From an uncultured Bacteroidales bacterium (lineage in GTDB: Bacteria > Bacteroidota > Bacteroidia > Bacteroidales > WCHB1-69), in the NCBI GenBank assembly GCA_900317715.1, contig ONHS01000001.1, positions 18,316 to 82,315 of the forward strand: a stretch of 64,000 bases of DNA. Reading direction: 5' to 3'. The translations under genes were made by a program, and so were the position numbers. This document shows positions 9,715 to 61,727 of this stretch, in pieces; the stretch's first letter is position 1, and each line of letters begins with the position of its first letter. The notes beneath the pieces are model-generated. The model saw only the letters and a list, made by a program, of their open reading frames with translations, searched no databases and had not been told where the DNA came from.

Positions 9715-9789
9715 GTATTTTTTTCGATACGAAACGCATGGGTGATTCGGAATTTCATTTTTCATCCCAATTTTGTTTAGATTGCTTTT

Positions 9790-9877
9790 GGCTGTTGGCT
9801 TTTAGCTATTGGCTTTCGGCTATAAGTGGCTAATAGTCAACGGGAAAAGGCAATAGGGAATAGGCAATAGGGAATTG
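9790..9877 (-). repeat. heptamer STR block R1 (families D and E)
   Basis: Plus strand reads ggctgttggcttttagctattggctttcggctataagtggctaatag ... gcaatagggaataggcaatagggaat. The 7-nt period is visible. Confidence 0.75.
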
Positions 9878-10651: not shown

Positions 10652-10810
10652 GTTTCAAGTTTCAAGTTTCAGGTTTCAGGTTTCAAGTTTCAGGTTTCAA
10701 GGATCAAGGATCAAAGTTCAAAGTTCAAAGTTAATGGTTTTTAGGTATCAAGTTTTAAGTCTCAAGTCTCACGTCTTAAGTCTCAAGTCTTACGTCTTAC
10801 GTCACACGTC
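10652..10810 (-). repeat. heptamer STR block R2 (sense order A then B)
   Basis: Fills the whole mutL-stop to ABC-start spacer. Plus strand reads gtttcaa/gtttcag x7, ggatcaa x2, agttcaa x2 ... gtctcaa/gtcttac/gtcacac units. Confidence 0.9.
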
Positions 10811-12676: not shown

Positions 12677-12769
12677 AGGTTAAAAGGTTTAGAGTTTAAG
12701 GTTTAGGGTTTAGAGTTTAGAGTTTAGAGTTTAGGGGATAAAGGTTGGAAGGTTAGGGGTTAGGGGTTA
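12677..12769 (-). repeat. heptamer STR block R3 (family C only, G-free on sense strand)
   Basis: Plus strand reads ggtttag/agtttag/ggttagg units from the mutL ATG to, and including, the upstream stop codon. Confidence 0.9.
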
Positions 12770-18353: not shown

Positions 18354-19703
18354 ATGCATAAGTTTCATTTTAACGCTGCACGGTGGTTATTCCTGTTAGC
18401 CGCCGTGTGTGCGTATTCCGGATTATTGGCACAGGTGGCGGACAATGAATTCACGATTGACGCCAAATTGAACACCCGTGGAGAGATTCGCGTGGGTGGA
18501 TATGACGACGCGGATGGCGAAGGACAGGAAGGAAGAGCCCATTTTATCATGGGGCAGTATCGGCTCAACCTCGGATACAAGCGGTCCGACTGGTTGGAGA
18601 TACGTCTCTCACCGCAGTTCTCCGGCGTATGGGGACAGGCGGGCGGCACTTTGAATCTCTCTGAAGGCTGGCTCACGATGAAACACAACAAGACCGGTCT
18701 TTTCACCAAAATAGGTCGTCAAACTCTTGAATACGACGACGAGCGTATCTTGGGTTACGATGACTGGACCATGACCGCGCCCACCCACGACGCCATCAAA
18801 CTAGGTTTCGAGGGTTACGGTCACAAAGTGCATCTGATCCTCGCCTACAACCAAAATGCAGAAAACATTTCCTCCGGTATCACCTACTATTCCGATGGAA
18901 TACAGCCCTACAAGACCATGCAGACCCTTTGGTACCACTACAACACTCCGAAAAACTTCTTCGGCATCTCCTTGCTCGGCATGAATATCGGAGTGCAAAG
19001 CAAGAAATATGATGAGCCTAACAAAACTTTCTTCCAACAAATTTTCGGCACATACCTGAACTTGAACCCCAGCATTGTCAATGTGGAAGGCTCCTTCTAC
19101 TACCAAATGGGCAGAGAGGAACACGGAATCAAGCTGAACGCCTTCATGGGAAGCGCTAAGGCCACCGTCACCCCCAATGACATCTACAACCTTTACACTG
19201 GTTATGATTACCTGAGCGGTGACAATTACCCCGTCACGACAAATGGCAATTTGGGCCTTATTTTCCATAAAGAGGCGCGGGCATTCACCCCCTTGTTCGG
19301 TTCTCACCACGATTTTTACGGTGCCATGGAATTTTTCTATTTTGACAACTATGCGCACAACTTCTCCCCCGGTTTGCAAAACCTCTATGTCGGTGGCAAC
19401 GTCAGCCCCGTCCCGGGATTGACCATCAACGCCGCCTACCACTTCTACGCCATCGCCGCCGACCTTCAATACGCTCAAAAAGAATTGAACAAAGCATTGG
19501 GCCATGATGTTGACCTCGGCGTGTCCTACTCTTTCGCGAATTTTGTCAAACTGTCGGCAGGCTACTCCTACATGCGCGGCACCGAGACGATGGAAATCCT
19601 CCAAAACACCACCGACAAGCGCCGTCTGCATTGGGGCTGGTTGATGCTGACCGTCACCCCGACTTTCTTCACCACCACGTGGAATGATAAGAAGAAGGTT
19701 TAA
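18354..19703 (+). CDS. outer-membrane beta-barrel protein (porin-like, possibly alginate-export family), 449 aa
   Basis: Signal peptide LFLLAAVCAYSGLLAQ, alternating amphipathic strands rich in Y/G, and a C-terminal aromatic-rich strand. The family name is tentative. Confidence 0.6.
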   Translation: MHKFHFNAARWLFLLAAVCAYSGLLAQVADNEFTIDAKLNTRGEIRVGGYDDADGEGQEGRAHFIMGQYRLNLGYKRSDWLEIRLSPQFSGVWGQAGGTLNLSEGWLTMKHNKTGLFTKIGRQTLEYDDERILGYDDWTMTAPTHDAIKLGFEGYGHKVHLILAYNQNAENISSGITYYSDGIQPYKTMQTLWYHYNTPKNFFGISLLGMNIGVQSKKYDEPNKTFFQQIFGTYLNLNPSIVNVEGSFYYQMGREEHGIKLNAFMGSAKATVTPNDIYNLYTGYDYLSGDNYPVTTNGNLGLIFHKEARAFTPLFGSHHDFYGAMEFFYFDNYAHNFSPGLQNLYVGGNVSPVPGLTINAAYHFYAIAADLQYAQKELNKALGHDVDLGVSYSFANFVKLSAGYSYMRGTETMEILQNTTDKRRLHWGWLMLTVTPTFFTTTWNDKKKV

Positions 19704-19792
19704 GGTTGAGGGTTTAAGGTTGAGGGTTTAAGGTTGAGGGTTTAAGGTTGAGGGTTTAAGGTTTAAGGTTTAAGGTTGAGGGTTTAAGGTTT
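19697..19792. repeat. heptamer STR block R4 (ggtttaa/ggttgag 14-nt double units)
   Basis: Begins inside the last codons (aag gtt taa) of the porin gene and runs ~95 nt. Confidence 0.9.
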
Positions 19793-24727: not shown

Positions 24728-24741
24728 CATTTTTTATATTT

Positions 24742-24860
24742 GGTTTAGGAGGTTAGAAGGTTCAAAGTTCAAGGTTCAAGGTTCAAGGTTCAAAGTTTCA
24801 GGTTTCAAGTTTCAAGTTTCAGGTTTCAAGTCTTAAATCATAAGTCACACGTCATACGTC
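24742..24860 (-). repeat. heptamer STR block R5 (sense order A, B, C)
   Basis: Sense strand reads gacgtatgacgtgtgacttatga... cttgaaa/cctgaaa x6, ccttgaa x3 ... ctaacctcctaaacc. The block overlaps the last 5 codons and the stop of the dus-like gene. Confidence 0.9.
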
Positions 24861-25762
24861 AAAAACTCCTTCAAGTCACAAATTCTCAACATCTGTTGCA
24901 GTTTTTCATCGGGCATTTGCATGAAAACGGCGAAATAGTGCCATAGTTCTTTCAGATTCGCCAGTGTGCCGGATTCTCCGCGGATGGGTAATAAATCATC
25001 GATAAGATTCTGATAGAAAGCGAGAAAACGACTGTTCTTGTCGCCAACTTCTTGACCTTTAATCTCTTCTGCCAAAAACGGATTTTGAAGCAACCCGCGA
25101 CCTAACATCCAAGCTTCCACATTAGGAAATCGTTCAGAGAGTGCCAGATAGTCTTCTTTGGTGAAAATATCGCCGCTATAGACGATTTTATGATGGGTTA
25201 TGCTGCAAAATTCCTCAAATATGTCCCAATGTGGTTTTCCTTCGTAGATTTCATCGCCCAAACGAGGATGGATGACCAGGAAATCCAATGGATAAGCGTT
25301 CAGCCGTTGCAGTAAAACGCGGCCTTCGTCGGGGTGATGCAGCCCGAGGCGCATCTTCAAGGAAACCTGAAACGATGTTTGTTCGGTGATGGCCGCCACC
25401 ATTCGTTCGATTGTGTCGGGGTGGGGCATGAGCCCGCACCCGCGCGTGTGTCGCACGACAGGGGACGAGGGACATCCGATGTTGATGTTAAAATGCTCGT
25501 ACCCAAACTGTTCGTGCAGCATGTTCATCGTGTCCACGAACTGTTGAGGTTGGTTGCCCATGAGTTGCGGGGTGAGTGGAAGGGCGGTGTTGTTTTCCGG
25601 AAGGATGTCCTGCCACACTTTCGGGCGGAATTTTCCGGCGGACTGCACGGGGAGGAATGGGGACATAAAAAAATCTATGCCGCCAAAATGACGGCATAGT
25701 GTGTTTCTGAATGTACGGGAAGTGATCCCGTGCAGAGGGGCTAACCAGAGTTCCGGTGCCAT
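24845..25762 (-). CDS. tRNA-dihydrouridine synthase family protein, 305 aa
   Basis: Dus-like TIM-barrel motifs (LAPLHGITS..FR, NIGCPS) and typical length. Confidence 0.8.
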   Translation of the reverse strand: MAPELWLAPLHGITSRTFRNTLCRHFGGIDFFMSPFLPVQSAGKFRPKVWQDILPENNTALPLTPQLMGNQPQQFVDTMNMLHEQFGYEHFNINIGCPSSPVVRHTRGCGLMPHPDTIERMVAAITEQTSFQVSLKMRLGLHHPDEGRVLLQRLNAYPLDFLVIHPRLGDEIYEGKPHWDIFEEFCSITHHKIVYSGDIFTKEDYLALSERFPNVEAWMLGRGLLQNPFLAEEIKGQEVGDKNSRFLAFYQNLIDDLLPIRGESGTLANLKELWHYFAVFMQMPDEKLQQMLRICDLKEFLTYDV

Positions 25763-26727
25763 TAGCGAATCACCACTTTCCGGGTCTTTTCAGAACCGTT
25801 CACGTTGAAAGTCAGCATATAAACGCCGGCAGGATACTTTTTGACGTCCAAGCTGGTTTTGCCTACCGACTTGCCGGAATCCAGCGTTCTGCCCGTCAAA
25901 TCGCGCAACGACCACTGGTATTGTTTGTCGGTGTTTGCTTGGAAATAAAGCACGTCAGAAGCCGGGTTGGGATATACGGTTTCGCGCTCCGTCTCCACAA
26001 CAGGAACGGCCACCTCTTGCATCAGTTTGACATCATCCACATACAGAATTGAACCACCGCCCATGCTGGTGGAAGAAATTATCACAATCATGATGGAGTC
26101 GCAAGCGGTGCCGGGATCGTCAAAATTGAGTGCGATTTGCTGATAACCGTCAGGATTCAGAGAACCGTAAGTGTTATAAGCATAGCTCACGGGAGTGCCG
26201 TTTTGCTTGGTCATAGCCAAGACTAGCATTTCATCCTCATCCACAGGTTGATACTTGACCCACATCGTCACGGCTCCTGGCGTTTGTGTGCAAGGAATAC
26301 CGGGCGCGAAGATTTTAGCCAAGGATGTCAGTGATGACAGGTTATCGGGATCGAAGCCTGCGCCTGTGGTGTCCTGGATGGCTTGTATGATGGCCATAAT
26401 ATCCTCTAAAGGAATAGAAAAGCCTTCAGATTCGCCGACTTGCAGAATACCGGGAAGCGGAATGGTGTATCCGAGGTTAGGAATCGTGAAATCGGCAGAT
26501 TCTAACTTTATAGCGTAATTGCCATTATGGGAGTCAGTGGTTTGGGACCCGAAATTCACCTCTACGGGAATATTGACGAAGGAGGTGATGTAGCCATGAA
26601 GACCAGCTGTCCAACCCACCGCTTTTCCGTATGACCACGTTTCAAAATCTCCGTTGGTGATGATGTTTTGTGCGTTCAGAGTCGCAAAACTGCTTAAAAT
26701 CAATAAAAATGCTAAAACTTTTTTCAT
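25762..26727 (-). CDS. T9SS-secreted protein, 321 aa (possible PCMD-like beta-sandwich)
   Basis: Signal peptide MKKVLAFLLILSSFATLNAQ, N-terminal NGDFETW motif, and C-terminal sorting domain VYPNPASDVLYF...GVYMLTF...RKVVIR. Confidence 0.7.
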   Translation of the reverse strand: MKKVLAFLLILSSFATLNAQNIITNGDFETWSYGKAVGWTAGLHGYITSFVNIPVEVNFGSQTTDSHNGNYAIKLESADFTIPNLGYTIPLPGILQVGESEGFSIPLEDIMAIIQAIQDTTGAGFDPDNLSSLTSLAKIFAPGIPCTQTPGAVTMWVKYQPVDEDEMLVLAMTKQNGTPVSYAYNTYGSLNPDGYQQIALNFDDPGTACDSIMIVIISSTSMGGGSILYVDDVKLMQEVAVPVVETERETVYPNPASDVLYFQANTDKQYQWSLRDLTGRTLDSGKSVGKTSLDVKKYPAGVYMLTFNVNGSEKTRKVVIR

Positions 26728-26753
26728 ATTCTTGAACTTATATCATCATGAAT

Positions 26754-28955
26754 TTACAACACCGTTATAGATCCCTTATGCGAGGAGGATACGCCCTCGT
26801 AGTCGGTGATATGGAGCGTGTAAGTGAAGGTGGAGCCGACCATCAGCTTGCCGTTGACAGAACCGTTCCATTCGAAATCTTTGTTGGTGGTATGGTAAAC
26901 CACTTCGCCATTGCGGTTGAAAACCGTGAACTCCAGCTCTTTGATGAGGCTTCTTTGCGGAATGTAGAAGTAGTCGTTCATGCCATCTAAGTTGCTGGGC
27001 GTTATGGTGTTGGGAAGATTCAGGAAGGGTTTGCAAGCTGGGATGGTGATGGTGTTGGTCGCGGAACATCCGTCTTCATTTTGAATCTCCACAGAATAGG
27101 TGCCAGGGGCTGTGATGGTAATGGAAGGCGTCGTTTCGCCGGTGCTCCATTTGTATTGGGCGATGTCGTCTTCTGATTCGGCGGAGAGGGTGGTGGTGAA
27201 GGCATCACAATAGTCCAAATCGAAGGCGATTTCCACCTTGGGCTTGCGCACAATCAAGGTGACATCGACAAGGCTGTCGCAGCCGTTCCAAGCCAGTGTT
27301 TCGTAATTGACACGGCGGGTGCCTTCTGTGGACCAGGTCTGAGTTTCTCCAAAATATTGGGAATCATAAACGAACGGCAGTTTTTCCTCGCAAGTGGAAA
27401 CTGTATCCGTCGCAGAGGAGTTCTCCGTAGCCGTCATGTCCAGGTGGATGACTTTTTCTATCGTATCGACGCAGATTCTGGCGGAGTCTTGGATAATGAT
27501 CCTAATAGTAGCCTCGCCAGTTTCTGATATCGTGCTGTTGTCAAAGGTCAAGACGGGATCGAGGGTGTTTTCTGCGAAGGGAATGAACGCATTGTTGTCA
27601 CGTCTTTTCACCAGCCACTGGATGAGTTGCGTTTGTTGTCGGACGGTGTCTTCCGTGCCACCTTGTTGTGTGGGCGGGGTGATGACGAAAATATCACTGG
27701 AGTCCATAAAGTGAACCGTCAGGTCGCAATTGTTGAACAACTGCTCATATCCGAAGTCGGCATCCAAGTAATAGGATTTGATGTGTGCTTCGTAAACGAA
27801 GGGGACGCCCGTGTAGGATTTCATCTCGCAACGGTAATAAGGCCAGATTCTAGCCAGGTTACGATCCAAGGAGACTTTATAAATGGTGCCGCTGATACCC
27901 GGTTGGTCGAAGTCGAGAATGCGGTTGCAGGCATCCAGAGAGTCGTAGCCGTAGTGCCATTCGTAGGTCTGTTCCAGGAAGCCCCACGGCACGGAAAGTT
28001 GTACAGGTTCTTCACCACATGCATCCACGTGGATGTCGCCGGGGATCATTTTGGCGGCGAAGAGGCAGTAAGCCCAGTGATACATAGCGCCGCATGCTCT
28101 GACGCGGATACGCAACTTTACGGATTTTCCTTGAGCGGCATAGTCGCTCAAATCGAAAGCGACAGGCTTGTATTCAAACCAACCCACATCGTAAGAGGAA
28201 AGTCCGCTGCTCTGGCTGGGCGGGCATTTACGGAACGGGAAGGTCGTGGGAGTAGCTTCAGGGAATGCCCAATAATAGGTGGTGATACCATTTTCGTCAG
28301 GAGCCGTGTGCGTGTCTTGAGCGGAATTACTACCACTGGGCACAGCCAGGAAACGATTGTACGGCCAAGCCGTGTTGATAGTGCCGTTAGCCCGTTTGTA
28401 GTAACCACTCGGAATCAGTTGCCCCGTCACACCATCAATCACCTCGATGTAAAATCTGGGGTTGTAACTGGCTTCATGGTAGGAGACATCTTCCTCAGCA
28501 AAAGAGAAATAGACCAGCAACGTGCTCTCCCCGGGTTGAGGATAGAACCAGTATTCCAGCTGAGAGTTGTCGGCGCAAGGGGTGCAACCGTTGGAACAGT
28601 TGTTGCATCCCACCATGATTACCGTGTCCAAAGTCTCGCTTGAATTACCTGACCAAGAGATAGGCAGGTAGTTTTCGTGCGGGTAGGTGTTGCCCACTTG
28701 GTAGCAACGACAAGGGTCGGCGGCCTGAGTGGTGATCAGTTTGTGTGAGTAGTATCCGTTATAGGAACTGATGCCTGACGAAGATTCAAAACTGCTCAGG
28801 GAAGAGGAGGTGGAGGCCCGGACGTAGTGGTGGTTCTGGAAGTCCAACGTCATGAAGTTCAGTGGCCCTTGGGCGGGTGTCCATGGGGCATATTGTGCCA
28901 TGCCTAAACTGACAGATAAAAAGCAAATGACTGCGAAAAAAGCTATCTTTTTCAT
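26754..28955 (-). CDS. secreted protein with T9SS type-B (gliding-motility-associated) C-terminal domain, 733 aa
   Basis: Signal peptide plus C-terminal PNTITPSNLDGMNDYFYIP...FTVFNRNGEVVY...WNG...G.....TFTY signature. Confidence 0.75.
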   Translation of the reverse strand: MKKIAFFAVICFLSVSLGMAQYAPWTPAQGPLNFMTLDFQNHHYVRASTSSSLSSFESSSGISSYNGYYSHKLITTQAADPCRCYQVGNTYPHENYLPISWSGNSSETLDTVIMVGCNNCSNGCTPCADNSQLEYWFYPQPGESTLLVYFSFAEEDVSYHEASYNPRFYIEVIDGVTGQLIPSGYYKRANGTINTAWPYNRFLAVPSGSNSAQDTHTAPDENGITTYYWAFPEATPTTFPFRKCPPSQSSGLSSYDVGWFEYKPVAFDLSDYAAQGKSVKLRIRVRACGAMYHWAYCLFAAKMIPGDIHVDACGEEPVQLSVPWGFLEQTYEWHYGYDSLDACNRILDFDQPGISGTIYKVSLDRNLARIWPYYRCEMKSYTGVPFVYEAHIKSYYLDADFGYEQLFNNCDLTVHFMDSSDIFVITPPTQQGGTEDTVRQQTQLIQWLVKRRDNNAFIPFAENTLDPVLTFDNSTISETGEATIRIIIQDSARICVDTIEKVIHLDMTATENSSATDTVSTCEEKLPFVYDSQYFGETQTWSTEGTRRVNYETLAWNGCDSLVDVTLIVRKPKVEIAFDLDYCDAFTTTLSAESEDDIAQYKWSTGETTPSITITAPGTYSVEIQNEDGCSATNTITIPACKPFLNLPNTITPSNLDGMNDYFYIPQRSLIKELEFTVFNRNGEVVYHTTNKDFEWNGSVNGKLMVGSTFTYTLHITDYEGVSSSHKGSITVL

Positions 28956-29105
28956 AATTTCAAATTTTTCATCTTTTACACCCTAACGAAAAAAACGCCT
29001 GAACGTTGCAAACAATTTTCATTTTTTTCTTAGGTCAAAAATCATTTTTCTTCTCCGCCGCGAAATTACAATTTTTATTCTTATGCTTCGCAAAAAAATA
29101 TTTTA

Positions 29106-29113
29106 TACCTTTG
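29106..29113 (+). promoter_or_regulatory. -7 box TACCTTTG
   Basis: Matches TAnnTTTG, 26 nt before ATG 29139. No further box appears before 33623. Confidence 0.55.
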
Positions 29114-29138
29114 CCGCCGCAAAATCTAAACCTAAAGT

Positions 29139-29831
29139 ATGAAAAAACCAGATATTCTTGTCATCATTATTATTGTTCTTTGCTTGCTGCCATTCTTCTT
29201 GTTTGACAGCGTTTATGATGCGTATTGCACAGCAAATCAGCGTTTTCCGTTATGGATGGCCTTTTTGAAATTCGGCATATTGGCTACGTTTGGGGAGATG
29301 TTGGGATGCCGTGTGAGAACGGGCGAATATTACCATAAAGGTTTCGGCATTGCTCCGAAATTTGTCATTTGGGGACTTTTGGGTATGTGGATTGCCTTGG
29401 CGATGAGTGTTTTCCGTCTCGGCATCCCTGCGTTCATGGAGCGTTATGCAGCCTTCAGCGGTGTTTCCGCCGCCATGGCAGGCCCGATGTCGTGGCTGAA
29501 ACTCCTCGGCGCCTTCTGCATCAGCGTGATGATGAACACCTCCTTCGCGCCCGTCTTCATGACCGTGCACAAGATCTCCGACATGCACATCAGCGAGCAC
29601 GGCGGCGCCTTCTCCGCGCTCTTCAAGCCCGTTGATGTGAAACGTCACATCTGCGAAATGGACTGGGGTGTGCAATGGGGCTTCGTCTTCAAGAAGACCA
29701 TCCCGATGTTCTGGATTCCTGCCCATACGCTCACTTTCTGTCTGCCGCAAGACCTCCAAGTGCTCTTCGCCGCCTTCTGTAGCGTCATCCTCGGACTGTT
29801 CCTGTCCATCGCTGCGAAAAAAGGGAACTAG
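29139..29831 (+). CDS. polytopic membrane protein, 230 aa
   Basis: About six hydrophobic helices. No family recognised. Confidence 0.6.
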   Translation: MKKPDILVIIIIVLCLLPFFLFDSVYDAYCTANQRFPLWMAFLKFGILATFGEMLGCRVRTGEYYHKGFGIAPKFVIWGLLGMWIALAMSVFRLGIPAFMERYAAFSGVSAAMAGPMSWLKLLGAFCISVMMNTSFAPVFMTVHKISDMHISEHGGAFSALFKPVDVKRHICEMDWGVQWGFVFKKTIPMFWIPAHTLTFCLPQDLQVLFAAFCSVILGLFLSIAAKKGN

Positions 29832-30023
29832 CTGTTGGCCGTTAGTCGTTCGCTTGCGAGAAACTAATGCTTTGAGACGTGTGACGTATGACGTGTGATG
29901 TGTGATGTGTGACTTGTGACCCTCGACACCTTGACCCTTGACCCTATACTATTAACCTTCTAACCTTCAACCCCTTAAACCTTCAACCCTAAACCCTAAA
30001 CCTTAAACCAACCCCAAACCAAC
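29832..30023 (+). repeat. heptamer STR block R6 (E-like, A 29874-29920, B 29921-29946, C 29953-30020)
   Basis: Fills the entire stop-to-ATG spacer. The last 78 nt contain no G. Confidence 0.9.
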
Positions 30024-30713
30024 ATGTATTTTATCATTTTCATCGTATTAATGGTCGCGAGCATGGTCATCCAAAAGACCTTGACCTCGCGCATGGAAAA
30101 ATATTCCAAAGTCCCGCTCAGCAGCGGGCTCTCCGGCAAGCAAGTGGCCGAGAAGATGCTGCGTGACAACGGTATTTATGACGTGCAGGTGACCTGCACC
30201 GGCGGTTATCTCACCGACCACTACGACCCGACCAAGAAGACGGTCAACCTGAGTGAAGGTGTCTATGAGGGTCGCAACATCTCCGCCGCTGCCGTCGCTG
30301 CGCACGAGTGCGGACACGCCGTGCAGCACGCCACTGCCTACCGCTGGCTCACCATGCGTTCCAAGCTGGTGCCCGCCGTGCAATTCGGTTCGCAATTCTC
30401 GACATGGATTCTGCTGGCAGGTATCGTCCTCTTAGGATTTACCCAGTATTTAGGACAATGGGTGCTGCTGATTGGCATTGCTCTTTTTGCATTGACCACC
30501 ATCTTCTCCATCATTACCCTGCCTGTGGAGTACAATGCTTCCGAACGTGCCGTCGCTTGGCTCGACGAGCAGGCCATCACCACTGGCGAAGAGACCGTTA
30601 TGGCCAAGGACGCCCTCAAGTGGGCCGCCCGCACCTACCTCATCGCCGCTATTTCCTCGCTGGCCACCTTGTTGTACTATATCTCCATTTACATGGGAGG
30701 AAGAAGGGATTAA
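30024..30713 (+). CDS. YugP-family zinc metallopeptidase, 229 aa
   Basis: HECGHAVQH zinc motif with N- and C-terminal TM helices, typical of the neutral zinc metallopeptidase (YugP) family. Confidence 0.85.
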   Translation: MYFIIFIVLMVASMVIQKTLTSRMEKYSKVPLSSGLSGKQVAEKMLRDNGIYDVQVTCTGGYLTDHYDPTKKTVNLSEGVYEGRNISAAAVAAHECGHAVQHATAYRWLTMRSKLVPAVQFGSQFSTWILLAGIVLLGFTQYLGQWVLLIGIALFALTTIFSIITLPVEYNASERAVAWLDEQAITTGEETVMAKDALKWAARTYLIAAISSLATLLYYISIYMGGRRD

Positions 30714-30743
30714 TTCATAATTCACAATTCATAATTCATAATT
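30711..30743 (+). repeat. heptamer STR block R7 (family F, ttcataa)
   Basis: taattcataattcacaattcataattcataatt spans from the stop codon to 3 nt before the next ATG. Confidence 0.85.
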
Positions 30744-30746
30744 GGA

Positions 30747-31835
30747 ATGAAAAGAATCGTAACATTATTAGTTGTTAACCTGTTGGTTTTAAGTGTGTTT
30801 GCGCAGGTGCAGGTTTATCCTTTGGGAAATTTGCCGGAGAAGGTGAAATATACGGGTTCCGTGACATATGCGCTTCCTTCCACTACGTTGAAAGTGACGG
30901 TTTCCGTCTCCAAAGTGCAGGATGTGCGCGGCTATTTCGCGGATTATGCCGAAAGTCTGCTTGGATTGACCAATATCATCCAGCAGAACAGCACCCATTA
31001 CTTGATCAATTCTGTGGAGATCGAACCTTTGAAAACGCCTGATATGACTGAAGTTTACAGGGCTTTCACCTCCAACGCTGTACTTGCTGAATCTATGAAC
31101 AAAGCTCCTCTCACTGCTCATGTGGCTTTCCCAGATGGGTATTTAACAGCCTATCAAACGCATACGGCATCGCTCCCTGAGTTCTTCAAAAACTATGCGG
31201 ACATTTCGTACACACAACAGCAGGAGACGTTTGTAGATACTAAAATCATTGACGGTGTCGTGACGCAAGTGCCTGCCAATCATACGAAAACGGTCTCCAA
31301 GAGTTTTGAGAACAAAGCTCGTGAGGCTGCCGATGCCATCATGAAGAGCCGTAAAGATCAATACAATCTGGTTGCGGGCGAGCAGGAAACTCCCTATACG
31401 GGAGAGGCGTTGGCCATCATGCTTTCGGAACTTAAAAATTGGGAAAGCAACTACATGAGCCTTTTCACTGGTGTCTCCATCGCCGACACGATCCAGTATG
31501 TGTTCTATTTTACGCCAAACAGCAAATTGGAGCAGATGACGGCGTTCTATTTTAGTGAGAACAAAGGACTTAACCCGACGGAAGGTGCCGCTGCGAATGC
31601 TTATACGCTGAACTTTAATCCTCGCTACCCAAAGATGTTTGAAGTGGCGGAATGGTATTTTCCGCAATCAGGTTTTTTGACGCGCAACAGGCAACCCGTG
31701 CACGTCACCCTGTCGCACGACAAAAAGGTTCACGATTTCGGTGTTGTGAACATGTACCAAGCGGGAAGCACTTTTGTGGTACAACCTTCCGCAAAAGAGC
31801 CCTTCGACATAAACCAAGTTGGCATTGTGTTTTAG
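30747..31835 (+). CDS. secreted hypothetical protein (DUF4831-like), 362 aa
   Basis: Signal peptide MKRIVTLLVVNLLVLSVFAQ. The family name is from memory of similar Bacteroidota proteins and is tentative. Confidence 0.55.
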   Translation: MKRIVTLLVVNLLVLSVFAQVQVYPLGNLPEKVKYTGSVTYALPSTTLKVTVSVSKVQDVRGYFADYAESLLGLTNIIQQNSTHYLINSVEIEPLKTPDMTEVYRAFTSNAVLAESMNKAPLTAHVAFPDGYLTAYQTHTASLPEFFKNYADISYTQQQETFVDTKIIDGVVTQVPANHTKTVSKSFENKAREAADAIMKSRKDQYNLVAGEQETPYTGEALAIMLSELKNWESNYMSLFTGVSIADTIQYVFYFTPNSKLEQMTAFYFSENKGLNPTEGAAANAYTLNFNPRYPKMFEVAEWYFPQSGFLTRNRQPVHVTLSHDKKVHDFGVVNMYQAGSTFVVQPSAKEPFDINQVGIVF

Positions 31836-31975
31836 CTTGACGTATGACGTATGATTTGTGACTTGTGACTTATGACTTATGACTTATGATTAGTGATATA
31901 GACTAGATTCTTGACCCTTGACCTTCGACCCTAAACATTAAACTCTAAACCCTAAACCCCAAACCTTAAACCTTC
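31836..31975 (+). repeat. heptamer STR block R8 (A 31836-31897, B 31910-31931, C 31930-31975)
   Basis: cttgacgtatgacgtatga...gacttatgacttatgacttatga ... cttgacccttgaccttcgaccc taaacattaaactctaaaccctaaaccccaaaccttaaaccttc, then ATG. Confidence 0.9.
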
Positions 31976-32482
31976 ATGCAAAGAACCCTAATTTCCATCC
32001 TTGCCCTCGTCCTCGTTTTCTTCACTGGATGCCAGAAGATGGAGCAGAATAAGCTCAATCGCCAGATGAAGAAGATGGCCAAAGTCTATTTAGAGCAAGA
32101 GGAGGTAAAAAATTATAAAGATTTGGCCATTACGTGTGTCGATACCATCACGGAGTTCAGTTATGCCAAGTTGACCTCCGAATTGTTGGGGAATATGGAA
32201 GTGATGTACGAACAGATGTATTGGGACGAGTCGGAAGATTCGACCAAGCGCGAAGTTATTGGTTTGTACCTCAATGAGATACGTCGGACAAAAGCGGATT
32301 TTGAGGATTTGATGGACAACGGTGATTTGCAGACCGAGGGCATTCTGCTGTATATGGTTACGGGTACTTTCCAGCTGGATGGCCAAAAGCAGGATATGAT
32401 GTTCTTGGTGAACCCGGATAAGAAATCGCTGCATGAGCTGGATCCGTTCGGCAACAATCTGTTATATAAGGACGAAGAGTGA
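31976..32482 (+). CDS. lipoprotein, 168 aa
   Basis: MQRTLISILALVLVFFTGC is a lipobox. Confidence 0.6.
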   Translation: MQRTLISILALVLVFFTGCQKMEQNKLNRQMKKMAKVYLEQEEVKNYKDLAITCVDTITEFSYAKLTSELLGNMEVMYEQMYWDESEDSTKREVIGLYLNEIRRTKADFEDLMDNGDLQTEGILLYMVTGTFQLDGQKQDMMFLVNPDKKSLHELDPFGNNLLYKDEE

Positions 32483-33423
32483 TGTTTCCCTGGGGCGATG
32501 AGCGGCGGTTTAACGCCTATAGCCGCTATTGCAGAGCGCATTACGGCGGCAGAATCCAGAAACTGCCGGTGGATGCGGGTTTCTCCTGTCCCAACCGTGT
32601 GAGTCGCACGCAAGGCGGTTGCACCTATTGTGCCAACAGTGCCTTTTCTCCATCTTATCTTGCTGATAAAGAAGATGTTGCTTTTCAATTGGAGCGCGGT
32701 AAAACCTTCTTTCAGAAAAGGTATCCCAAGAATAAAGGTTATTTTGCTTATTTTCAGGCATATACTAATACAAATGCACCTGTTGAGGTCCTTCGGCGAA
32801 AGTTCGAGGCGGCTTTGACCGTGGCTGATATTAAGGGACTTGTCATTTCCACCCGTCCTGATTGTCTGCCGGAAGAGGTGTTGGATTACCTTTCCGAGCT
32901 GAACGAGCGCACACACCTGACGATGGAAATAGGCGTGGAAAGTTTTCATAATGAGACGCTTACGCATATCCATCGCGGACATACGGTGGAATGCACTTTC
33001 GAAGCGTTTGAAAAACTGCATCAGCGGAATATTTCCACCAGTGCGCATCTGATTTTCGGTCTGCCCGACGAGAAACCCGAGCAATGGTTGGAGGATGTGC
33101 GGATCCTCAATAGATTGCGGTCCCAGTTCGTGAAATTCCATCAGCTGCAGATTTTCAAGAACACCGCCATGGAAACCGAATATGCGCAACATCCCGAGCG
33201 TTTCCATTCTTTTTCCGCCGATGATTACGTGCAGTTTCTGTGCGATTATCTGGAGCGGATGTCCCCCGAAATTGTCATTGAGCGCTTCTCGGCCGAGGTG
33301 CCACCCCGCTATCTCGCTGTCTCCCAGTGGAATTTGCTGCGCCATGATGCGTTGGTGCGTAAGGTAGAGGAGGAAATGGAGCGGAGGGGAAGCTGGCAGG
33401 GAGGTTCAATTCATAATTCATAA
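32482..33423 (+). CDS. TIGR01212-type radical SAM protein, 313 aa
   Basis: QKLPVDAGFSCPNR.....GGCTYC cluster motif. ATG 32482 overlaps the upstream TGA (TGATG). The last codons lie in the F repeat. Confidence 0.8.
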   Translation: MFPWGDERRFNAYSRYCRAHYGGRIQKLPVDAGFSCPNRVSRTQGGCTYCANSAFSPSYLADKEDVAFQLERGKTFFQKRYPKNKGYFAYFQAYTNTNAPVEVLRRKFEAALTVADIKGLVISTRPDCLPEEVLDYLSELNERTHLTMEIGVESFHNETLTHIHRGHTVECTFEAFEKLHQRNISTSAHLIFGLPDEKPEQWLEDVRILNRLRSQFVKFHQLQIFKNTAMETEYAQHPERFHSFSADDYVQFLCDYLERMSPEIVIERFSAEVPPRYLAVSQWNLLRHDALVRKVEEEMERRGSWQGGSIHNS

Positions 33424-33432
33424 TTCATAATT
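33407..33432 (+). repeat. heptamer STR block R9a (family F)
   Basis: caattcataattcataattcataatt encodes the last 5 residues (IHNS plus stop) of the radical SAM gene. Confidence 0.85.
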
Positions 33433-33474
33433 GGCGCGCTACGTACCAAGGATTTCGTTTCTGTAACGCATAAG

Positions 33475-33558
33475 GTTCATCGATTATTCATCGTCTTTCA
33501 TCCTCTTTCATCGCCTTTCGTCGCCTTTCATCGCCTTTCCTCGTATTTCATCGTATTT
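33475..33558 (+). repeat. decamer tandem repeat R9b (ctttcatcgc x ~8)
   Basis: 10-nt period: ctttcatcct ctttcatcgc ctttcgtcgc ctttcatcgc ctttcctcgt atttcatcgt. Confidence 0.85.
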
Positions 33559-33622
33559 TTAACAAATAATAGTTAAAATTAAAAATATTTTAATCAATAT
33601 GTTATTGTATTGAAAATTTTTC

Positions 33623-33630
33623 TATTTTTG
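33623..33630 (+). promoter_or_regulatory. -7 box TATTTTTG upstream of comM
   Basis: Matches TAnnTTTG, 26 nt before ATG 33656. Confidence 0.55.
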
Positions 33631-33655
33631 CCGCGAAGACAAAAACAGAAATAAC

Positions 33656-35290: not shown

Positions 35291-35653
35291 ATGAAAGACA
35301 TTAAAGATAATATAATCGTAGTGAAGAGTACTGAGTTCGCAGTAGAGATTGTAAAAGCATGTAATTGGTTGCGAAAAGAAAAAAAAGAATGGGTGATGTC
35401 TGAGCAATTGTTGAAAAGTGGTACTAGCATTGGGGCTAACATTCGTGAGGGAATCAGGGGACAGAGCAGTGCTGATTTTTATGCTAAATTCAATGTTTCA
35501 CTCAAAGAAGCAAGTGAAACAGATTATTGGTTAGAACTATTATTTTTGAGTGGATATTTTGATAAAACTCTGTATGATGATCTGAATTTAAAATGCCAAG
35601 AATTAATACGATTGTTGATGTCCATAGTAAAACACAAAGATACCCCCAAATAA
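35291..35653 (+). CDS. four-helix-bundle protein (23S rRNA intervening-sequence protein / Avd-like family), 120 aa
   Basis: Length and motifs (SGTSIGANI.EG, F..K...SLKEA.ET.YWLELL) are typical of the TIGR02436-type family. Confidence 0.75.
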   Translation: MKDIKDNIIVVKSTEFAVEIVKACNWLRKEKKEWVMSEQLLKSGTSIGANIREGIRGQSSADFYAKFNVSLKEASETDYWLELLFLSGYFDKTLYDDLNLKCQELIRLLMSIVKHKDTPK

Positions 35654-35683
35654 TTATGCATTATGCATTATGAATTGTGAATT
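35652..35683. repeat. right arm of the 32-nt inverted repeat (family F in inverted orientation)
   Basis: aattatgcattatgcattatgaattgtgaatt overlaps the TAA stop of the four-helix-bundle gene. Confidence 0.9.
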
Positions 35684-35692
35684 AATTTTCAG

Positions 35693-35720: not shown

Positions 35721-36827
35721 ATGGAAAAGAGATATATCATCAGCGGCGGCGGTACTGGCGGGCACATTTTCCCCGCGTTGGCCATCGCTAACAAGATCAA
35801 AGCAGAAAACCCTGATGCCAAGATTCTCTTCATCGGGGCAAGCGATAAAATGGAAATGCGGCGCGTGCCGGAAGCTGGCTATCCTATTGAAGGACTGGAG
35901 ATTTACGGCATCCATCGCGACTTTTCACCTAGTGGCATTATGTGCAATTTGCGTCTGCCGGTGGTGATGATGAAGGCCATGAGTAAGGCCAAGAAAATCA
36001 TGCGCGAGTTCAAGCCCAATCTCGCCATCGGGGTTGGCGGATTCGCCAGCGGTCCCGCGCTAAAAGCTGCATCGCAACTCGGAATCCCGACACTTTTGCA
36101 GGAACAAAACTCCTACCCTGGGGTTACCAACAAGATGCTGGCCAAGAAAGCCAAGACCATCTGCGTGGCCTACGACGGTCTCGACCGCTTCTTCCCGCCC
36201 GAAAAAATCATCAAAACGGGCAACCCCATCCGCAAGGAAATCCTGCAGTTGGAGCGCAAATCGCCTGCCGCATACGAATATTTCAACTTTTCACCCGACA
36301 AGAAAACCGTGTTGGTGGTAGGCGGAAGTCTAGGTGCCCGCACCTTCAACCAGACCATGGCCGCCAACTTGGACGCTTTCCGTAAAGCAGACCTTCAACT
36401 GCTTTGGCAAACGGGCGAGCAATTCTACAAGAACATCGATCCTGAACTGCTTAAACAGCAGGACGAGCACATCCATATCGTGCCGTTTATCAAGAACATG
36501 AACGATGCCTACAGCATGGCTGATGTCATCATATCCCGTGCGGGTGCATTGGCGTTGGCTGAATTGACCATCGTGGGCGCACCTACCATCCTCGTGCCGT
36601 TCCCCTACGCCGCCGAAGACCACCAGACCTTCAACGCCAAGGCTCTCTCCACAAAAGATGCCGCCCTGCTCATTTCCGACAAGGAAGCCCCGGAGAAGCT
36701 GATACCCACGCTGTTACAACTTGTCAATGACCCGCACCGAATGGAAACCCTTGGCACGAACATCAAGACCTTCGCCCTGCCGAATGCGATTGATTTGATT
36801 TATGATGAGATTGTGAAGTTGGCGTGA
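35721..36827 (+). CDS. murG: UDP-N-acetylglucosamine--N-acetylmuramyl-(pentapeptide) pyrophosphoryl-undecaprenol GlcNAc transferase MurG, 368 aa
   Basis: GGGTGGHIFPALAIA N-terminal signature and GT28 C-terminal domain (GGSLGA, RAGA). Start moved to ATG 35721, because the track's N-terminal extension reads through the inverted F repeat. Confidence 0.9.
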   Translation: MEKRYIISGGGTGGHIFPALAIANKIKAENPDAKILFIGASDKMEMRRVPEAGYPIEGLEIYGIHRDFSPSGIMCNLRLPVVMMKAMSKAKKIMREFKPNLAIGVGGFASGPALKAASQLGIPTLLQEQNSYPGVTNKMLAKKAKTICVAYDGLDRFFPPEKIIKTGNPIRKEILQLERKSPAAYEYFNFSPDKKTVLVVGGSLGARTFNQTMAANLDAFRKADLQLLWQTGEQFYKNIDPELLKQQDEHIHIVPFIKNMNDAYSMADVIISRAGALALAELTIVGAPTILVPFPYAAEDHQTFNAKALSTKDAALLISDKEAPEKLIPTLLQLVNDPHRMETLGTNIKTFALPNAIDLIYDEIVKLA

Positions 36828-37030
36828 TGTGTGACGTGTGATGTGTGACGTGTGACGTGTGACGTGTGACGTGTGACGTGTGACGTGTGACGTGTGACGT
36901 GTGATAGTTGCTATAATCAAAAGTCATAAATCATAAATCAAAAGTCAAACGTCATAAGTCAAACTTCAAAAGTCAAACGTCATAAGTCAAACTTCATAAG
37001 TCAAACGTCAAAAAATAAACCTTAACCCCC
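36825..37030 (+). repeat. heptamer STR block R11 (A: tgtgacg x ~11 at 36825-36905; aagtcaa/acgtcat/acttcaa units at 36918-37010; short C)
   Basis: Starts with the murG stop TGA and ends 6 nt before ATG 37037. Confidence 0.9.
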
Positions 37031-37036
37031 AAAAAA

Positions 37037-45534: not shown

Positions 45535-45542
45535 TATTTTTG
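45535..45542 (+). promoter_or_regulatory. -7 box TATTTTTG upstream of the 3714-aa gene
   Basis: Matches TAnnTTTG immediately after the upstream stop codon and 87 nt before ATG 45629. STR block R12 lies between the box and the ATG. Confidence 0.5.
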
Positions 45543-45552
45543 CACCCAAAAC

Positions 45553-45617
45553 CTTGAAACTTGAACTTTGAATCTTGAAACTTGAATCTTGAATCTTGAA
45601 ACCTTAAAACCTTAAAA
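45553..45617 (+). repeat. heptamer STR block R12 (B: cttgaaa/ctttgaa/tcttgaa x7; then ccttaaaa x2)
   Basis: ccttgaaacttgaactttgaatcttgaaacttgaatcttgaatcttgaaaccttaaaaccttaaaaa. Confidence 0.9.
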
Positions 45618-45628
45618 ATCATATTATT

Positions 45629-59621: not shown

Positions 59622-59779
59622 GAAGGTTTAGGGTTTAGGGGGAAAATAAAGTTAGCAGTTAGCAGATAGTAGTTAGTAGTTAGCGGGGAGTAGGGAGAAG
59701 GGAATAGGGAATAGTCATACGTCAAAAGTCTAAGTTTAAGTTTATGTCTATGTCTAGGTTCAAAGTTCAAAGTCAAAGT
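59622..59779 (-). repeat. heptamer STR block R13 (sense order B, A-like, D, E, C)
   Basis: Fills the whole uvrC-stop to peptidase-ATG spacer. The sense strand ends ...ccccctaaaccctaaaccttcATG. Confidence 0.9.
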
Positions 59780-61552: not shown

Positions 61553-61727
61553 GGAGGGTGAGGGTTTAAGGTTGAGGGTTTAGGGGGTTAATAGGTTAGG
61601 GTCGAGGGTCGAGGGAAAAGGGAGTAGGGAATAGTTCAAGGTTCAAAGTTCAAAGTTCAAAGTTCAAGGTTCAAAGTCAAAAGTCAAAGTTCAAAGTTCA
61701 AAGTCAGCTAACAGCTAACAGCCAGTT
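61553..61727 (-). repeat. heptamer STR block R14 (sense order E, B, D, B-like, C)
   Basis: Sense strand reads ctggctgttagctgttagctga ctttgaa units x ~10, ctattccctactccc, cctcgaccctcgaccc, ...ccctaaaccctcaaccttaaaccctcaccctccATG. Confidence 0.9.

What the first reader, a model, noticed from the sequence alone, without database searches (positions are those of the whole stretch)
29832..30023. Repeat families recur in a similar order along the direction of transcription (A after the stop codon, then B, with C abutting the next start or promoter in most blocks)
Read in the sense of the flanking co-directional genes, the order recurs at 29874-30020 (A, B, C), 31836-31975 (A, B, C), 24742-24860 on the minus strand (A, B, C, then the -7 box), 10652-10810 minus (A, B), 36825-37030 (A, A-variant, short C) and 45553-45617 (B, C). 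At 59622-59779 and 61553-61727 on the minus strand, C is last. C-type units directly abut the downstream ATG in five cases: ...ccaaaccaacATG (30024), ...aaaccttcATG (31976), ...ccttttaacctATG (12676, minus), ...ctaaaccttcATG (59621, minus) and ...ctcaccctccATG (61552, minus). Random microsatellite expansion would not produce a shared polarity and order.
Basis: seen in the sequence. Interest (0 to 1): 0.8.

Follow-up and report, generated by a model that had tools for sequence, protein, structure and literature searches.

The report
Graded heptamer repeat spacers between genes
In this rumen Bacteroidales genome many gaps between same-strand genes are 7-base tandem repeats that change length between strains, and their units run from G/T-rich after the stop codon to G-free just before the next start codon, probably because the mRNA must stay open there.

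Summary
The window has 24 stringent period-7 tracts, all intergenic (0.05 expected), about 21% of its non-coding DNA. Family order A<B<E<C was concordant in 25/25 pairwise comparisons over 12 gaps. C-type units abut the ATG at all five named starts.

These are true slippage microsatellites. Among strains with 99.5-100% identical flanking genes, four gaps vary only in 7-nt steps (83-209, 152-194, 126-140 and 185-199 nt). One gap also has an unrelated short allele.

A, B and C are not discrete modules. They are sections of one array whose unit drifts by single substitutions, and A, D and F also occur inverted. The robust rule is compositional. Tracts next to a start codon are C>G on the sense strand in 18/18 cases. 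Tracts next to a stop codon tend to be G-rich. The sense RNA is nearly unstructured.

The same rule was published for GGGAATC repeats in Xanthomonas and Nostoc, and I found it for (TTGAAMY)n arrays across phyla (p=7e-5).

Most likely these are slippage-born spacers filtered by selection for a G-free, AUG-free, unstructured initiation region in Shine-Dalgarno-less Bacteroidia. I rate it a new variant of a known kind.

The parts
29873..29920 (+). A-type array (GACGTGT, GATGTGT, GACTTGT), stop-proximal part of the gap between the 230-aa gene and the Zn_peptidase_2 gene
   Evidence: Copy number differs by one unit between strains, giving 185, 192 or 199 nt.
29921..29949 (+). B'-type units (GACCCTC, GACCCTT), in register with the A units
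29950..30023 (+). C-type G-free segment (AACCTTC, AACCCTA, ...CCAAACCAAC) that abuts the ATG at 30024
   Evidence: 0 G in the last 35 nt. The start-proximal TAAACC motif is conserved in sister species.
31836..31892 (+). A-type array (TGACGTA, TGACTTG, TGACTTA) directly after the DUF4831 stop codon
   Evidence: TGACTTA is present 1, 2 or 3 times among strains, giving 126, 133 or 140 nt.
31910..31932 (+). B'-type units (CTTGACC)
31933..31975 (+). C-type G-free array that abuts the ATG at 31976
   Evidence: The N-terminus is shared with orthologue L003.
24832..24860 (-). A-type units that overlap the last codons and the TGA stop of the Dus gene
24761..24831 (-). B-type array (AACCTGA, AACTTGA, ACCTTGA), in register with the A units
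24741..24760 (-). Short C-type segment, followed by a Bacteroidetes-type -7 box TATCTTTG at 24727-24720
10748..10810 (-). A-type array (GACGTGT, GACGTAA, GACTTGA) directly after the mutL stop codon
10652..10733 (-). B-type array that abuts the ATG of the LptB-like ABC ATPase gene
   Evidence: The whole gap is 152, 159, 173, 180 or 194 nt among strains.
12677..12766 (-). C-type array that fills the whole gap between the small ORF's stop and the mutL ATG; it contains no G
   Evidence: Eight length alleles from 83 to 209 nt among 10 sequences, all equal to 6 mod 7.
36824..36906 (+). A-type array (GTGACGT, 11.6 copies) that overlaps the murG stop codon; 5' arm of a long hairpin
36917..37013 (+). 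Inverted A-like array (AAGTCAT, ACGTCAA); 3' arm of the hairpin
   Evidence: -76.1 kcal/mol, z = -7.5
37014..37036 (+). A/C-rich, G-poor leader that abuts the ybaK-like ATG at 37037
45535..45628 (+). -7 box TATTTTTG (45535-45542), then a B array and C-like units in the presumed 5' UTR of the 3714-aa T9SS protein gene
59622..59779 (-). Gap from uvrC to the M14 peptidase gene made entirely of arrays: B, period-6 array, A remnant, E (TATTCCC), F (CTAACTG), then C abutting the ATG at 59621
61553..61727 (-). Gap from the OstA-like gene to uvrC made entirely of arrays: F' (GCTGTTA), B, E, B', then C abutting the ATG at 61552
   Evidence: The B-E-C order is repeated in sister genome L159 at three gaps.
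30711..30744 (+). D-type array (TTCATAA, 4 units) that overlaps the Zn_peptidase_2 stop codon
   Evidence: It is invariant in 10 strains and conserved at this site across the clade.
33406..33434 (+). D-type array that overlaps the radical-SAM gene's stop codon
35198..35281 (+). D-type array upstream of the 23S-rRNA-IVP family gene
35652..35684 (+). Inverted D array downstream of the IVP gene
9784..9875 (-). E-like (TATTCCC, TATTGCC) and AGCCAAN arrays between the stop of the LptB-like gene and tRNA-Ser; C-rich on the sense strand
19697..19791 (+). Exception: a 14-nt-period array (GGTTTAAGGTTGAG, 6.8 copies), which is C-type in antisense. It overlaps the stop codon of gene 18354-19703 in a convergent gap.

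Best explanation
These are intergenic heptanucleotide microsatellites, that is, long simple-sequence repeats.

Origin (shown): they arise, grow and shrink by replication slippage in 7-nt steps.

Setting (inferred): in this rumen Bacteroidales clade they have come to make up whole intercistronic spacers inside operons.

Why strand and order are non-random (inferred): selection on the polycistronic mRNA filters which units survive at which position.
- The 20-40 nt before a start codon must be single-stranded, A/C-rich and free of G. A G-free stretch cannot contain AUG, GUG or UUG.
- Bacteroidia ribosomes do not use Shine-Dalgarno pairing. They depend on an open, A-rich initiation region with few nearby AUGs.
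- G-containing units (A-type, and F or B in the G-rich orientation) are therefore tolerated only at the stop-proximal side.

Consequence: point mutations followed by local slippage and homogenisation turn one array into a graded series, TGACGTG > TGACTTA > TGACCCT or TGAACCT > TAAACCC. This graded series reads as 'A, B, C'.
For: SHOWN
1. Slippage. Four gaps differ only by multiples of 7 nt among strains whose flanking genes are 99.5-100% identical.
2. Location. 24/24 tracts in the window are intergenic, as are 54/58 in the first set of relatives and 71/84 in 41 clade loci.
3. Start-proximal rule. Tracts next to a start are C>G on the sense strand in 18/18 cases. Seven window starts have 0-1 G in the last 35 nt, and no array gap has an ATG in its last 40 nt.
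4. Stop-proximal tendency. Tracts next to a stop are G>C in 11/15 co-directional and 6/8 convergent cases. Spearman rho for relative position versus G-C is -0.49, p=0.004.
5. Structure. The sense RNA of array gaps folds at 0 to -0.125 kcal/nt, weaker than mononucleotide shuffles (z from +0.1 to +3.0), and weaker than the antisense strand in 9 of 11 gaps.
6. Operon setting. There is no terminator-like site in the array gaps scanned (24000-38000) and no TAnnTTTG -7 box in the pure-array gaps. This is consistent with co-transcription.
7. Graded units in one register.
8. Turnover. Arrays at the gap after the DUF4831 gene (window 31836-31975) differ or are absent at the same site in sister species, while a start-proximal TAAACC segment persists at the gap before the Zn_peptidase_2 gene.
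9. Unit diversity. The clade uses at least 52 distinct units, which argues against a sequence-specific reader.
10. Background. Repeat-free gaps show the same trend more weakly: G falls from 0.186 to 0.144, and A is 0.44 at -20 to -11.

FROM THE LITERATURE
- The same positional strand rule was reported for GGGAATC repeats (PMC4692102). I reproduced it for (TTGAAMY)n arrays across phyla: Fisher p=7e-5.
Against: - No expression data exist. Co-transcription and any effect on translation are inferred.
- C-type units are far more C-rich (0.4-0.57) than ordinary initiation regions of the clade (0.17-0.19). G and structure avoidance alone does not explain the preference for C.
- The E-before-C order (4/4) does not follow from G content.
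- Junction strings such as TTGAAAC[TC]CTACTCCCTATTCCCTAA recur at three gaps of L159. CTATTAACC recurs at two window gaps. Both hint that whole cassettes are copied between gaps.
- The short C segment at 24741-24760 abuts a promoter, not a start codon.
- D arrays carry G next to the start.
- In Segatella copri, (GTTCAAA)n arrays abut start codons, so G is not strictly excluded elsewhere.
- My ORF-based gene calls in relatives may bias the distances to start codons.
Confidence: 0.55

Rival explanations
1. Composite cassettes (A-B-C, B-E-C) are copied as units between gaps by ectopic recombination or gene conversion, or by an unknown mobile mechanism. The shared order would then be inherited, not selected position by position.
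For: - Irregular junction strings are shared between distant gaps. CTATTAACC sits after GACCCTA at 29945 and at 61590. TTGAAAC(T/C)CTACTCC...TATTCCCTAA sits at three L159 gaps.
- One gap (29832-30023) has a whole-allele replacement between strains.
- The two neighbouring gaps, 29832-30023 and 31836-31975, are very alike.
Against: - There are no terminal inverted repeats, target duplications or linked transposase.
- The boundaries coincide with stop and start codons, not with element ends.
- Arrays at the gap after the DUF4831 gene (window 31836-31975) differ in sister species.
- The strand rule also holds for unrelated units and in other phyla.
- The sequence is low-complexity, which makes chance junction matches likely.
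Confidence: 0.15
2. The arrays are periodic binding platforms on the mRNA for a single-strand RNA-binding protein, roughly one protein per 7 nt. Candidates are ribosomal protein bS1, cold-shock-domain proteins and RRM-1 Rbp proteins. Binding would control translation or stability of the downstream cistron.
For: - The strict 7-nt period, the unstructured sense RNA and the position at start codons.
- CspB binds heptamer repeats one protein per unit, and S1 or Csp were proposed as readers of TAACTGA repeats (PMC4679880).
- bS1 domain 4 lies near mRNA positions -12 to -15 (PMC6847099).
Against: - At least 52 different units in the clade and 21 in this window.
- Free copy-number variation from 83 to 209 nt.
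- Presence or absence at the same gap in sister species.
- B. thetaiotaomicron RbpB prefers a G/U/A motif and did not bind a C/U-rich motif (10.1101/2021.04.27.441718).
Confidence: 0.12
3. The C-rich, G-poor, unstructured arrays are Rho-loading (rut-like) sites. They would couple transcription of the downstream cistron to its translation, that is, conditional polarity.
For: The sense-strand composition and lack of structure match the general rut description: C>G, 60-150 nt, 0 to -0.1 kcal/nt. The arrays lie inside operons without intrinsic terminators.
Against: - A rut site directly before essential genes (mutL, lptB, uvrC) would be costly.
- Stop-proximal parts are G-rich.
- The rule is strongest within 30 nt of the start, where a ribosome would cover the RNA.
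- Nothing here tests Rho.
Confidence: 0.08
4. The arrays are contingency or 'tuning-knob' repeats. Copy number would set expression of the downstream gene and create heritable, reversible heterogeneity in the population.
For: - Many length alleles among near-identical strains: 8 in 10 sequences before mutL.
- One array lies in a 5' UTR after a -7 box, upstream of a T9SS surface protein gene.
- Heptanucleotide repeats tune the hmw genes of Haemophilus influenzae (PMC8262952) and the ctx promoter of Vibrio cholerae (10.1101/2021.05.14.444153).
Against: - Most flanked genes are housekeeping genes, and most arrays are between cistrons rather than in promoters.
- Variation looks unconstrained.
- No expression data exist.
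Confidence: 0.1

Closest known systems
GGGAATC and GGGGA(T/C)T heptamer repeats of Xanthomonas and Nostoc (Rehm et al. 2015, PMC4692102)
   Same: - Intergenic heptamer repeats, mostly between co-directional genes.
- Variable in length between close relatives.
- G-rich strand on the coding strand within 0-50 nt after stop codons, often overlapping the stop.
- C-rich strand on the sense strand within 0-50 nt before start codons.
- The window's E units (TATTCCC, the complement of GGGAATA) differ from GGGAATC by one base.
   Different: - Those genomes have one dominant G4-prone unit. This window has many units, most not G4-prone.
- Here several unit types follow one another inside a single gap, and whole gaps are built from them.
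- The host is a Shine-Dalgarno-less Bacteroidales.
TAACTGA direct repeats of Beggiatoaceae, cyanobacteria and five Bacteroidetes (MacGregor 2015, PMC4679880)
   Same: - Heptamer direct repeats in forward orientation, a few nucleotides upstream of start codons.
- Shine-Dalgarno sites are rare in those gaps.
- A role in translation was proposed.
- Other heptamer arrays were noted in the same gaps of some Bacteroidetes.
- The window's F unit (TAACTGC, TAACTAC) is one base away.
   Different: - That system has a single unit, usually 2-6 copies, and related heptamers are not repeated.
- No graded succession was described.
- Horizontal transfer was proposed there. Here the strain comparisons point to in-place slippage and turnover.
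Long simple-sequence repeats with 5-11 nt units (Mrazek et al. 2007, as summarised in PMC4679880 and PMC4692102), and cyanobacterial STRR repeats (my own knowledge: Mazel et al. 1990)
   Same: Heptamers are the commonest long repeat unit in bacteria. They are intergenic, sporadic across lineages and attributed to polymerase slippage.
   Different: These are surveys of abundance. They did not describe position-dependent unit composition or the order of units within gaps.
Regulatory heptad repeats: Vibrio cholerae ctxAB TTTTGAT (10.1101/2021.05.14.444153) and Haemophilus influenzae hmw heptanucleotide repeats (PMC8262952)
   Same: Heptamer arrays with variable copy number next to genes. The unit TTTTGAT resembles B-type units (TTTGAAC).
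   Different: Those act at the DNA level in promoters of virulence or surface genes and bind known regulators. Here most arrays are intercistronic and next to housekeeping genes.

Membership tests
Intergenic heptanucleotide microsatellites (long simple-sequence repeats) | Head-to-tail tandem copies of a 7-nt unit, far above chance | tested here: met
   24 tracts against 0.05 in shuffles. Period 7 dominates the TRF histogram.
Intergenic heptanucleotide microsatellites (long simple-sequence repeats) | Confined to non-coding DNA | tested here: met
   24/24 in the window, which is 7.6% non-coding; 71/84 in the clade
Intergenic heptanucleotide microsatellites (long simple-sequence repeats) | Copy number changes in whole units between close strains (slippage) | tested here: met
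   all length alleles at four gaps are congruent mod 7.
Positional strand rule of heptamer repeats (Rehm 2015) | C-rich strand is the sense strand just upstream of start codons; G-rich strand is the sense strand just downstream of stop codons | tested here: met
   (18/18 near starts; 11/15 and 6/8 near stops) and across phyla (p=7e-5)
G-quadruplex-forming GGGAATC repeats | Unit with a run of at least three G, able to form a G4 | tested here: not met
   Most units (A, B, C, D, F) lack G runs. Only the complement of E, and 19697-19791, carry GGG. G4 folding itself was not tested.
TAACTGA repeat system (MacGregor 2015) | The unit is TAACTGA, and related heptamers are not repeated | tested here: not met
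   The F units are TAACTGC and TAACTAC. The window has 21 distinct canonical units.
TAACTGA repeat system (MacGregor 2015) | Forward-oriented arrays within a few nucleotides of the start codon | tested here: met
   C or B arrays abut six ATGs.
Cyanobacterial STRR1-3 | Units CCCCAGT, TTGGTCA, CAACAGT (my own knowledge) | tested here: not met
   None of these units is among the window's consensus units. F' (GCTGTTG) is only similar to the complement of STRR3.
Miniature transposable or REP-type elements | Fixed-length element with terminal inverted repeats or a conserved hairpin, and target-site duplication | tested here: not met
   lengths vary in unit steps, the ends coincide with stop and start codons, and there is no hairpin except at 36824-37013.
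Phase-variable contingency loci | Repeat number changes expression of the adjacent gene | not testable with these tools
   Length polymorphism is shown. No expression data are available.
Rho-utilisation sites | C-rich, G-poor, unstructured RNA of about 60-80 nt or more | tested here: met
   for the start-proximal halves only
Rho-utilisation sites | Rho-dependent termination downstream | not testable with these tools
   No transcript 3'-end data.

The most novel reading that the evidence does not exclude
The G-free heptamer arrays are evolvable ribosome landing pads for internal cistrons in Shine-Dalgarno-less Bacteroidia. Slippage would change their length at high rate and so tune translation of the downstream gene. 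The affected genes include the repair genes mutL and uvrC, so strains of one rumen species could differ heritably and reversibly in expression, and possibly in mutation rate. The recurrence of the same positional strand rule in Xanthomonas, Nostoc and many other phyla would then reflect a general, undescribed mRNA-level function of bacterial heptamer repeats.
Probability: 0.15. Interest if true: 0.8.

Novelty: new variant of a known kind. Interest (0 to 1): 0.5.

Why it matters
Heptamer repeats are the commonest long microsatellites in bacteria, and their function has stayed unexplained for decades.

This clade offers an unusually clean case:
- Whole intercistronic spacers are built from them.
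- There is a strict rule at start codons.
- There is natural strain-level copy-number variation.
- The host's ribosomes ignore Shine-Dalgarno sequences.

That makes one hypothesis directly testable with reporters: the repeats supply open, start-codon-free leaders.

On the practical side, the arrays break metagenome assemblies (N-runs and contig ends), and they could serve as strain markers for rumen Bacteroidales.

Tried and rejected
- **Structured RNA.** Rfam gathering search of the window gave only two tRNAs, so the arrays are not a known structured RNA.
- **Structured or terminator role for the A-B-C gaps.** Rejected. The sense RNA is less structured than shuffles and there are no terminator-like sites. 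Only 36824-37013 is a strong hairpin.
- **Replication-strand explanation of polarity.** Rejected. Array orientation flips with gene orientation in five alternating gene blocks within 64 kb, and GC skew shows no matching switches.
- **Universal polarity of the B unit.** Rejected. In other Bacteroidota, (TTGAAM)n is sense in 5 loci and antisense in 6. Across phyla it is 30 sense and 28 antisense. Only orientation combined with position is non-random.
- **Per-gap G gradient in relatives.** Not significant (15 decline, 12 rise), because many of those gaps contain promoters or REP-like elements. The tract-level test is significant.
- **Single sequence-specific reader.** Disfavoured by the diversity of units.
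- **RbpB as reader of C arrays.** Disfavoured. It did not bind a C/U-rich motif.
- **Technical failure.** My first dinucleotide-shuffle script timed out. I replaced it with mononucleotide shuffles and with the tool's own dinucleotide shuffles.
- **Strain look-ups for uvrC and ybaK.** These returned only identical alleles, so they give no information on variation at those gaps.

Full report
**Source and setting.** The window comes from an uncultured ruminant Bacteroidales. The closest public genomes are yak, goat, sheep and cattle MAGs, with DUF4831 protein identity of 84-86% and UvrC identity up to 98%. Contigs with identical proteins occur in many rumen metagenomes. I checked the gene map around every repeat block with Pfam:
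- LptB-like ABC ATPase 9884-10651 (-)
- MutL 10811-12676 (-)
- Dus 24845-25762 (-)
- Zn_peptidase_2 30024-30713
- DUF4831 30747-31835
- radical SAM 32479-33423
- YifB-like 33656-35200
- 23S-rRNA-IVP family 35291-35653
- MurG, ending at 36827
- YbaK-like 37037-37528
- three T9SS fn3 proteins 38987-56773
- M14 peptidase 57948-59621 (-)
- UvrC 59780-61552 (-)
- OstA-like 61728-63254 (-)

- TRF reports 68 rows, overwhelmingly of period 7, 14 or 21.
- A stringent lag-7 test gives 24 tracts against 0.05 in shuffles.
- All 24 are intergenic, although only 7.6% of the window is non-coding. They cover about 21% of that non-coding DNA.
- With signature hexamers, all 25 pairwise orders over 12 gaps (7 in the window, 5 in relatives) agree with A<B<E<C.
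- For the window alone, the chance of this order is about 8e-6 if the order is fixed in advance, and about 2e-4 after allowing for the 24 possible orders (my arithmetic). The gaps are not fully independent.
- The five C-abuts-ATG cases are exact. Those ATGs fit Pfam domain positions or an orthologue N-terminus.

**Corrections to the description.**
1. The 'A-variant' at 36917-37013 is an inverted A-like array. Together with the A array at 36824-36906 it folds into a hairpin with arms of about 85 nt (-76.1 kcal/mol, z = -7.5).
2. A, D and F occur in both orientations.
3. The gap 59622-59779 has a short A remnant after B.
4. The array at 19697-19791 is C-type in antisense and overlaps the stop codon of a porin-like gene in a convergent gap.
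5. Other families exist: D, E, F, a period-10 array and a period-6 array. The window holds 21 distinct canonical units, and 41 clade loci hold 52.
6. A, B and C are not separate elements. At 24860-24741 the units stay in one register while changing one base at a time: GACGTAT, GACTTAT, GACTTGA, AACTTGA, AACCTGA, ACCTTGA, ACCTTCT, AACCTCC. The gap 29873-30023 behaves the same way.

**They are active microsatellites.** I compared contigs from other rumen samples whose flanking genes are 99.5-100% identical at the nucleotide level.
- The DUF4831-downstream gap is 126, 133 or 140 nt (TGACTTA in 1, 2 or 3 copies).
- The 29832-30023 gap is 185, 192 or 199 nt.
- The mutL-lptB gap is 152, 159, 173, 180 or 194 nt.
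- The G-free gap before mutL has eight lengths, from 83 to 209 nt, in ten sequences.

Within each gap all lengths are congruent mod 7, and the unit order is kept. The 29832-30023 gap also exists as an unrelated 55 or 62 nt allele with C-type units only. That allele is the one found in sister species, so the A-B part there is a recent addition on the stop-proximal side. Assemblers leave N-runs or contig ends inside the arrays. At the gap after the DUF4831 gene, sister species have different units, different copy numbers or no array. In contrast, the D array between Zn_peptidase_2 and DUF4831 is invariant among strains and is kept across the clade.

**What is actually constrained?** The robust rule concerns strand composition by position.
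- In the window, G declines from stop to start in 8 of 8 non-D array gaps.
- Seven starts have 0-1 G in the preceding 35 nt, and no array gap has an ATG in its last 40 nt.
- In an independent set of 42 clade loci (about 0.8 Mb), tracts that abut a start are C>G on the sense strand in 5/5 cases, with a further 2/2 for tracts that fill the gap. Near starts in divergent gaps the count is 4/4.
- Tracts that abut a stop are G>C in 11/15 co-directional and 6/8 convergent cases.
- Relative position correlates with G minus C at rho = -0.49, p=0.004.
- The F family shows the rule directly. It reads AGTTAGC or GCTGTTG after stops and CTAACTG or AGCCAAC before starts.
- Orientation follows gene strand through five alternating gene blocks, so it tracks transcription or translation rather than replication.
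- Repeat-free gaps of the clade show the same trend more weakly: G declines in 89 and rises in 53, and A reaches 0.44 at -20 to -11.

**Structure and signals.** The sense transcript of array gaps is nearly unstructured, at 0 to -0.125 kcal/nt. It folds more weakly than shuffles, and more weakly than the antisense strand in 9 of 11 gaps. The 29825-30040 RNA has only a small hairpin in its non-repeat head. The array gaps scanned (24000-38000) have no terminator-like site. The pure-array gaps lack the Bacteroidetes TAnnTTTG -7 box, which elsewhere in the window sits 21-37 nt before the ATG. I infer that the arrays lie inside operons.

**Distribution.** Period-7 tracts occur at 0.67 per kb of non-coding DNA in the clade, 0.08 per kb in other Bacteroidota, and about 5 per kb in this window (24 tracts in 4,861 non-coding nt). 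B-type (TTGAAMY)4 arrays, however, occur in more than 119 loci from very diverse phyla. There the overall orientation is even (30 sense, 28 antisense) but depends on position. Sense copies sit near the downstream start (13/30 within 30 nt), and antisense copies sit right after the upstream stop (20/28). Fisher's exact test gives p=7e-5.

**Explanation.** Slippage produces the arrays; this step is shown. Selection on the mRNA then decides which units persist at which position; this step is inferred.

Bacteroidia do not use Shine-Dalgarno pairing. In Flavobacterium johnsoniae, initiation depends on low structure, on adenines at -3, -6 and -12/-13, and on depletion of AUG near the start (PMC6847099, PMC7797042). 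A G-free, A/C-rich tandem repeat of a unit that is not self-complementary cannot fold and cannot contain any start codon. That fits the strict rule at starts, the looser rule at stops, and the addition of new G-bearing arrays on the stop side.

Some things are not explained: the strong excess of C, the E-before-C order, and the shared junction strings that hint at cassette copying. The rivals are cassette propagation, a periodic RNA-binding protein, Rho loading, and copy-number tuning. Each keeps some probability.

**Comparison with known systems.**
- Heptamers are the commonest long microsatellites in bacteria (Mrazek 2007, as summarised in PMC4679880).
- TAACTGA repeats lie just upstream of start codons in Beggiatoaceae, cyanobacteria and five Bacteroidetes (PMC4679880).
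- GGGAATC repeats of Xanthomonas and Nostoc follow the same stop and start strand rule and vary between relatives (PMC4692102).
- Heptamer repeats near Nostoc start codons have been linked tentatively to translation (10.1101/2022.06.06.494920).

The present case belongs to that kind. What is new is the degree and the form. Whole intercistronic gaps are built from a graded series of units. Strain-level hypervariability is documented. The host is a Shine-Dalgarno-less rumen Bacteroidales clade.

**Verdict.** I rate it a new variant of a known kind, of moderate interest.

Noticed in passing
window 35198-35684; L006 11650-12101; L010 10782-11243: The 23S-rRNA-IVP family gene (35291-35653) is bracketed by a (TAATTCA)n array and its inverted copy. 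The same bracket is present in two relatives. This suggests either a stem that encloses the ORF or an insertion into a D array.
   Followed up: partly
window 36824-37013: A heptamer array and its inverted counterpart form a very stable hairpin with arms of about 85 nt (-76 kcal/mol, z = -7.5) between murG and the ybaK-like gene. Similar inverted array pairs occur in Acidobacteriota loci (L024, L025, L039, L043, L055, L086) and in L180 and L199.
   Followed up: partly
window 29832-30023 compared with L137, L139, L141: This gap has two unrelated alleles among strains with near-identical flanking genes: a 185-199 nt A-B-C allele, and a 55 or 62 nt C-only allele shared with sister species. L136 carries both alleles joined by Ns, which looks like a strain-mixture scaffold.
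   Followed up: yes
window 35670-35722: The murG start is probably the ATG at 35722 (MEKRYIISGGGTGG), preceded by its own TATTTTTG -7 box at about 35693. The ORF-list start at 35670 lies inside the inverted D array.
   Followed up: partly
window about 56808-56838; L001 5219-5250; L013 5092-5135: A hairpin, GTAGAGACG...CGTCTCTAC, recurs after stop codons in the window and in relatives. It may be a small REP-like element or a terminator.
   Followed up: no
L168 11774-11958; L170 9837-9985; L174 17275-17541; L183 9821-9985: Relatives carry a GC-rich REP-like element (GAGCAGCCCCGAAGGGGCAAGACG...CCCCACA...TGTGGGG) between heptamer arrays. I did not see it in the window.
   Followed up: no
window 33487-33558 and 59726-59756: Tandem arrays with other periods: TTCATCGTCT (7.2 copies, period 10) upstream of the yifB-like promoter, and TAGACA/TAAACT (period 6) inside the uvrC-M14 gap.
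   Followed up: no
window 19697-19791: A G-rich array with a 14-nt period (GGTTTAAGGTTGAG, 6.8 copies, 95% match) overlaps the stop codon of a porin-like gene in a convergent gap. It is the one C-type array in the opposite orientation, and it could form two- or three-tetrad G-quadruplexes.
   Followed up: partly
window 7670-9279; L147-L156: An AbiEii/DUF6088 toxin-antitoxin-like pair lies next to tRNA-Ser. The AbiEii gene is called as 314-336 aa in some strains and is split or shortened (224 and 112 aa) in others.
   Followed up: no
window 38987-56773: Three consecutive T9SS-sorted fn3-repeat proteins of 903, 1268 and 3714 aa. The largest has a B array in its presumed 5' UTR.
   Followed up: no
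window 12767-13030: A small ORF with no Pfam match lies upstream of mutL. It is called as an 80-aa gene in all strain contigs and is followed by the hypervariable G-free array.
   Followed up: no
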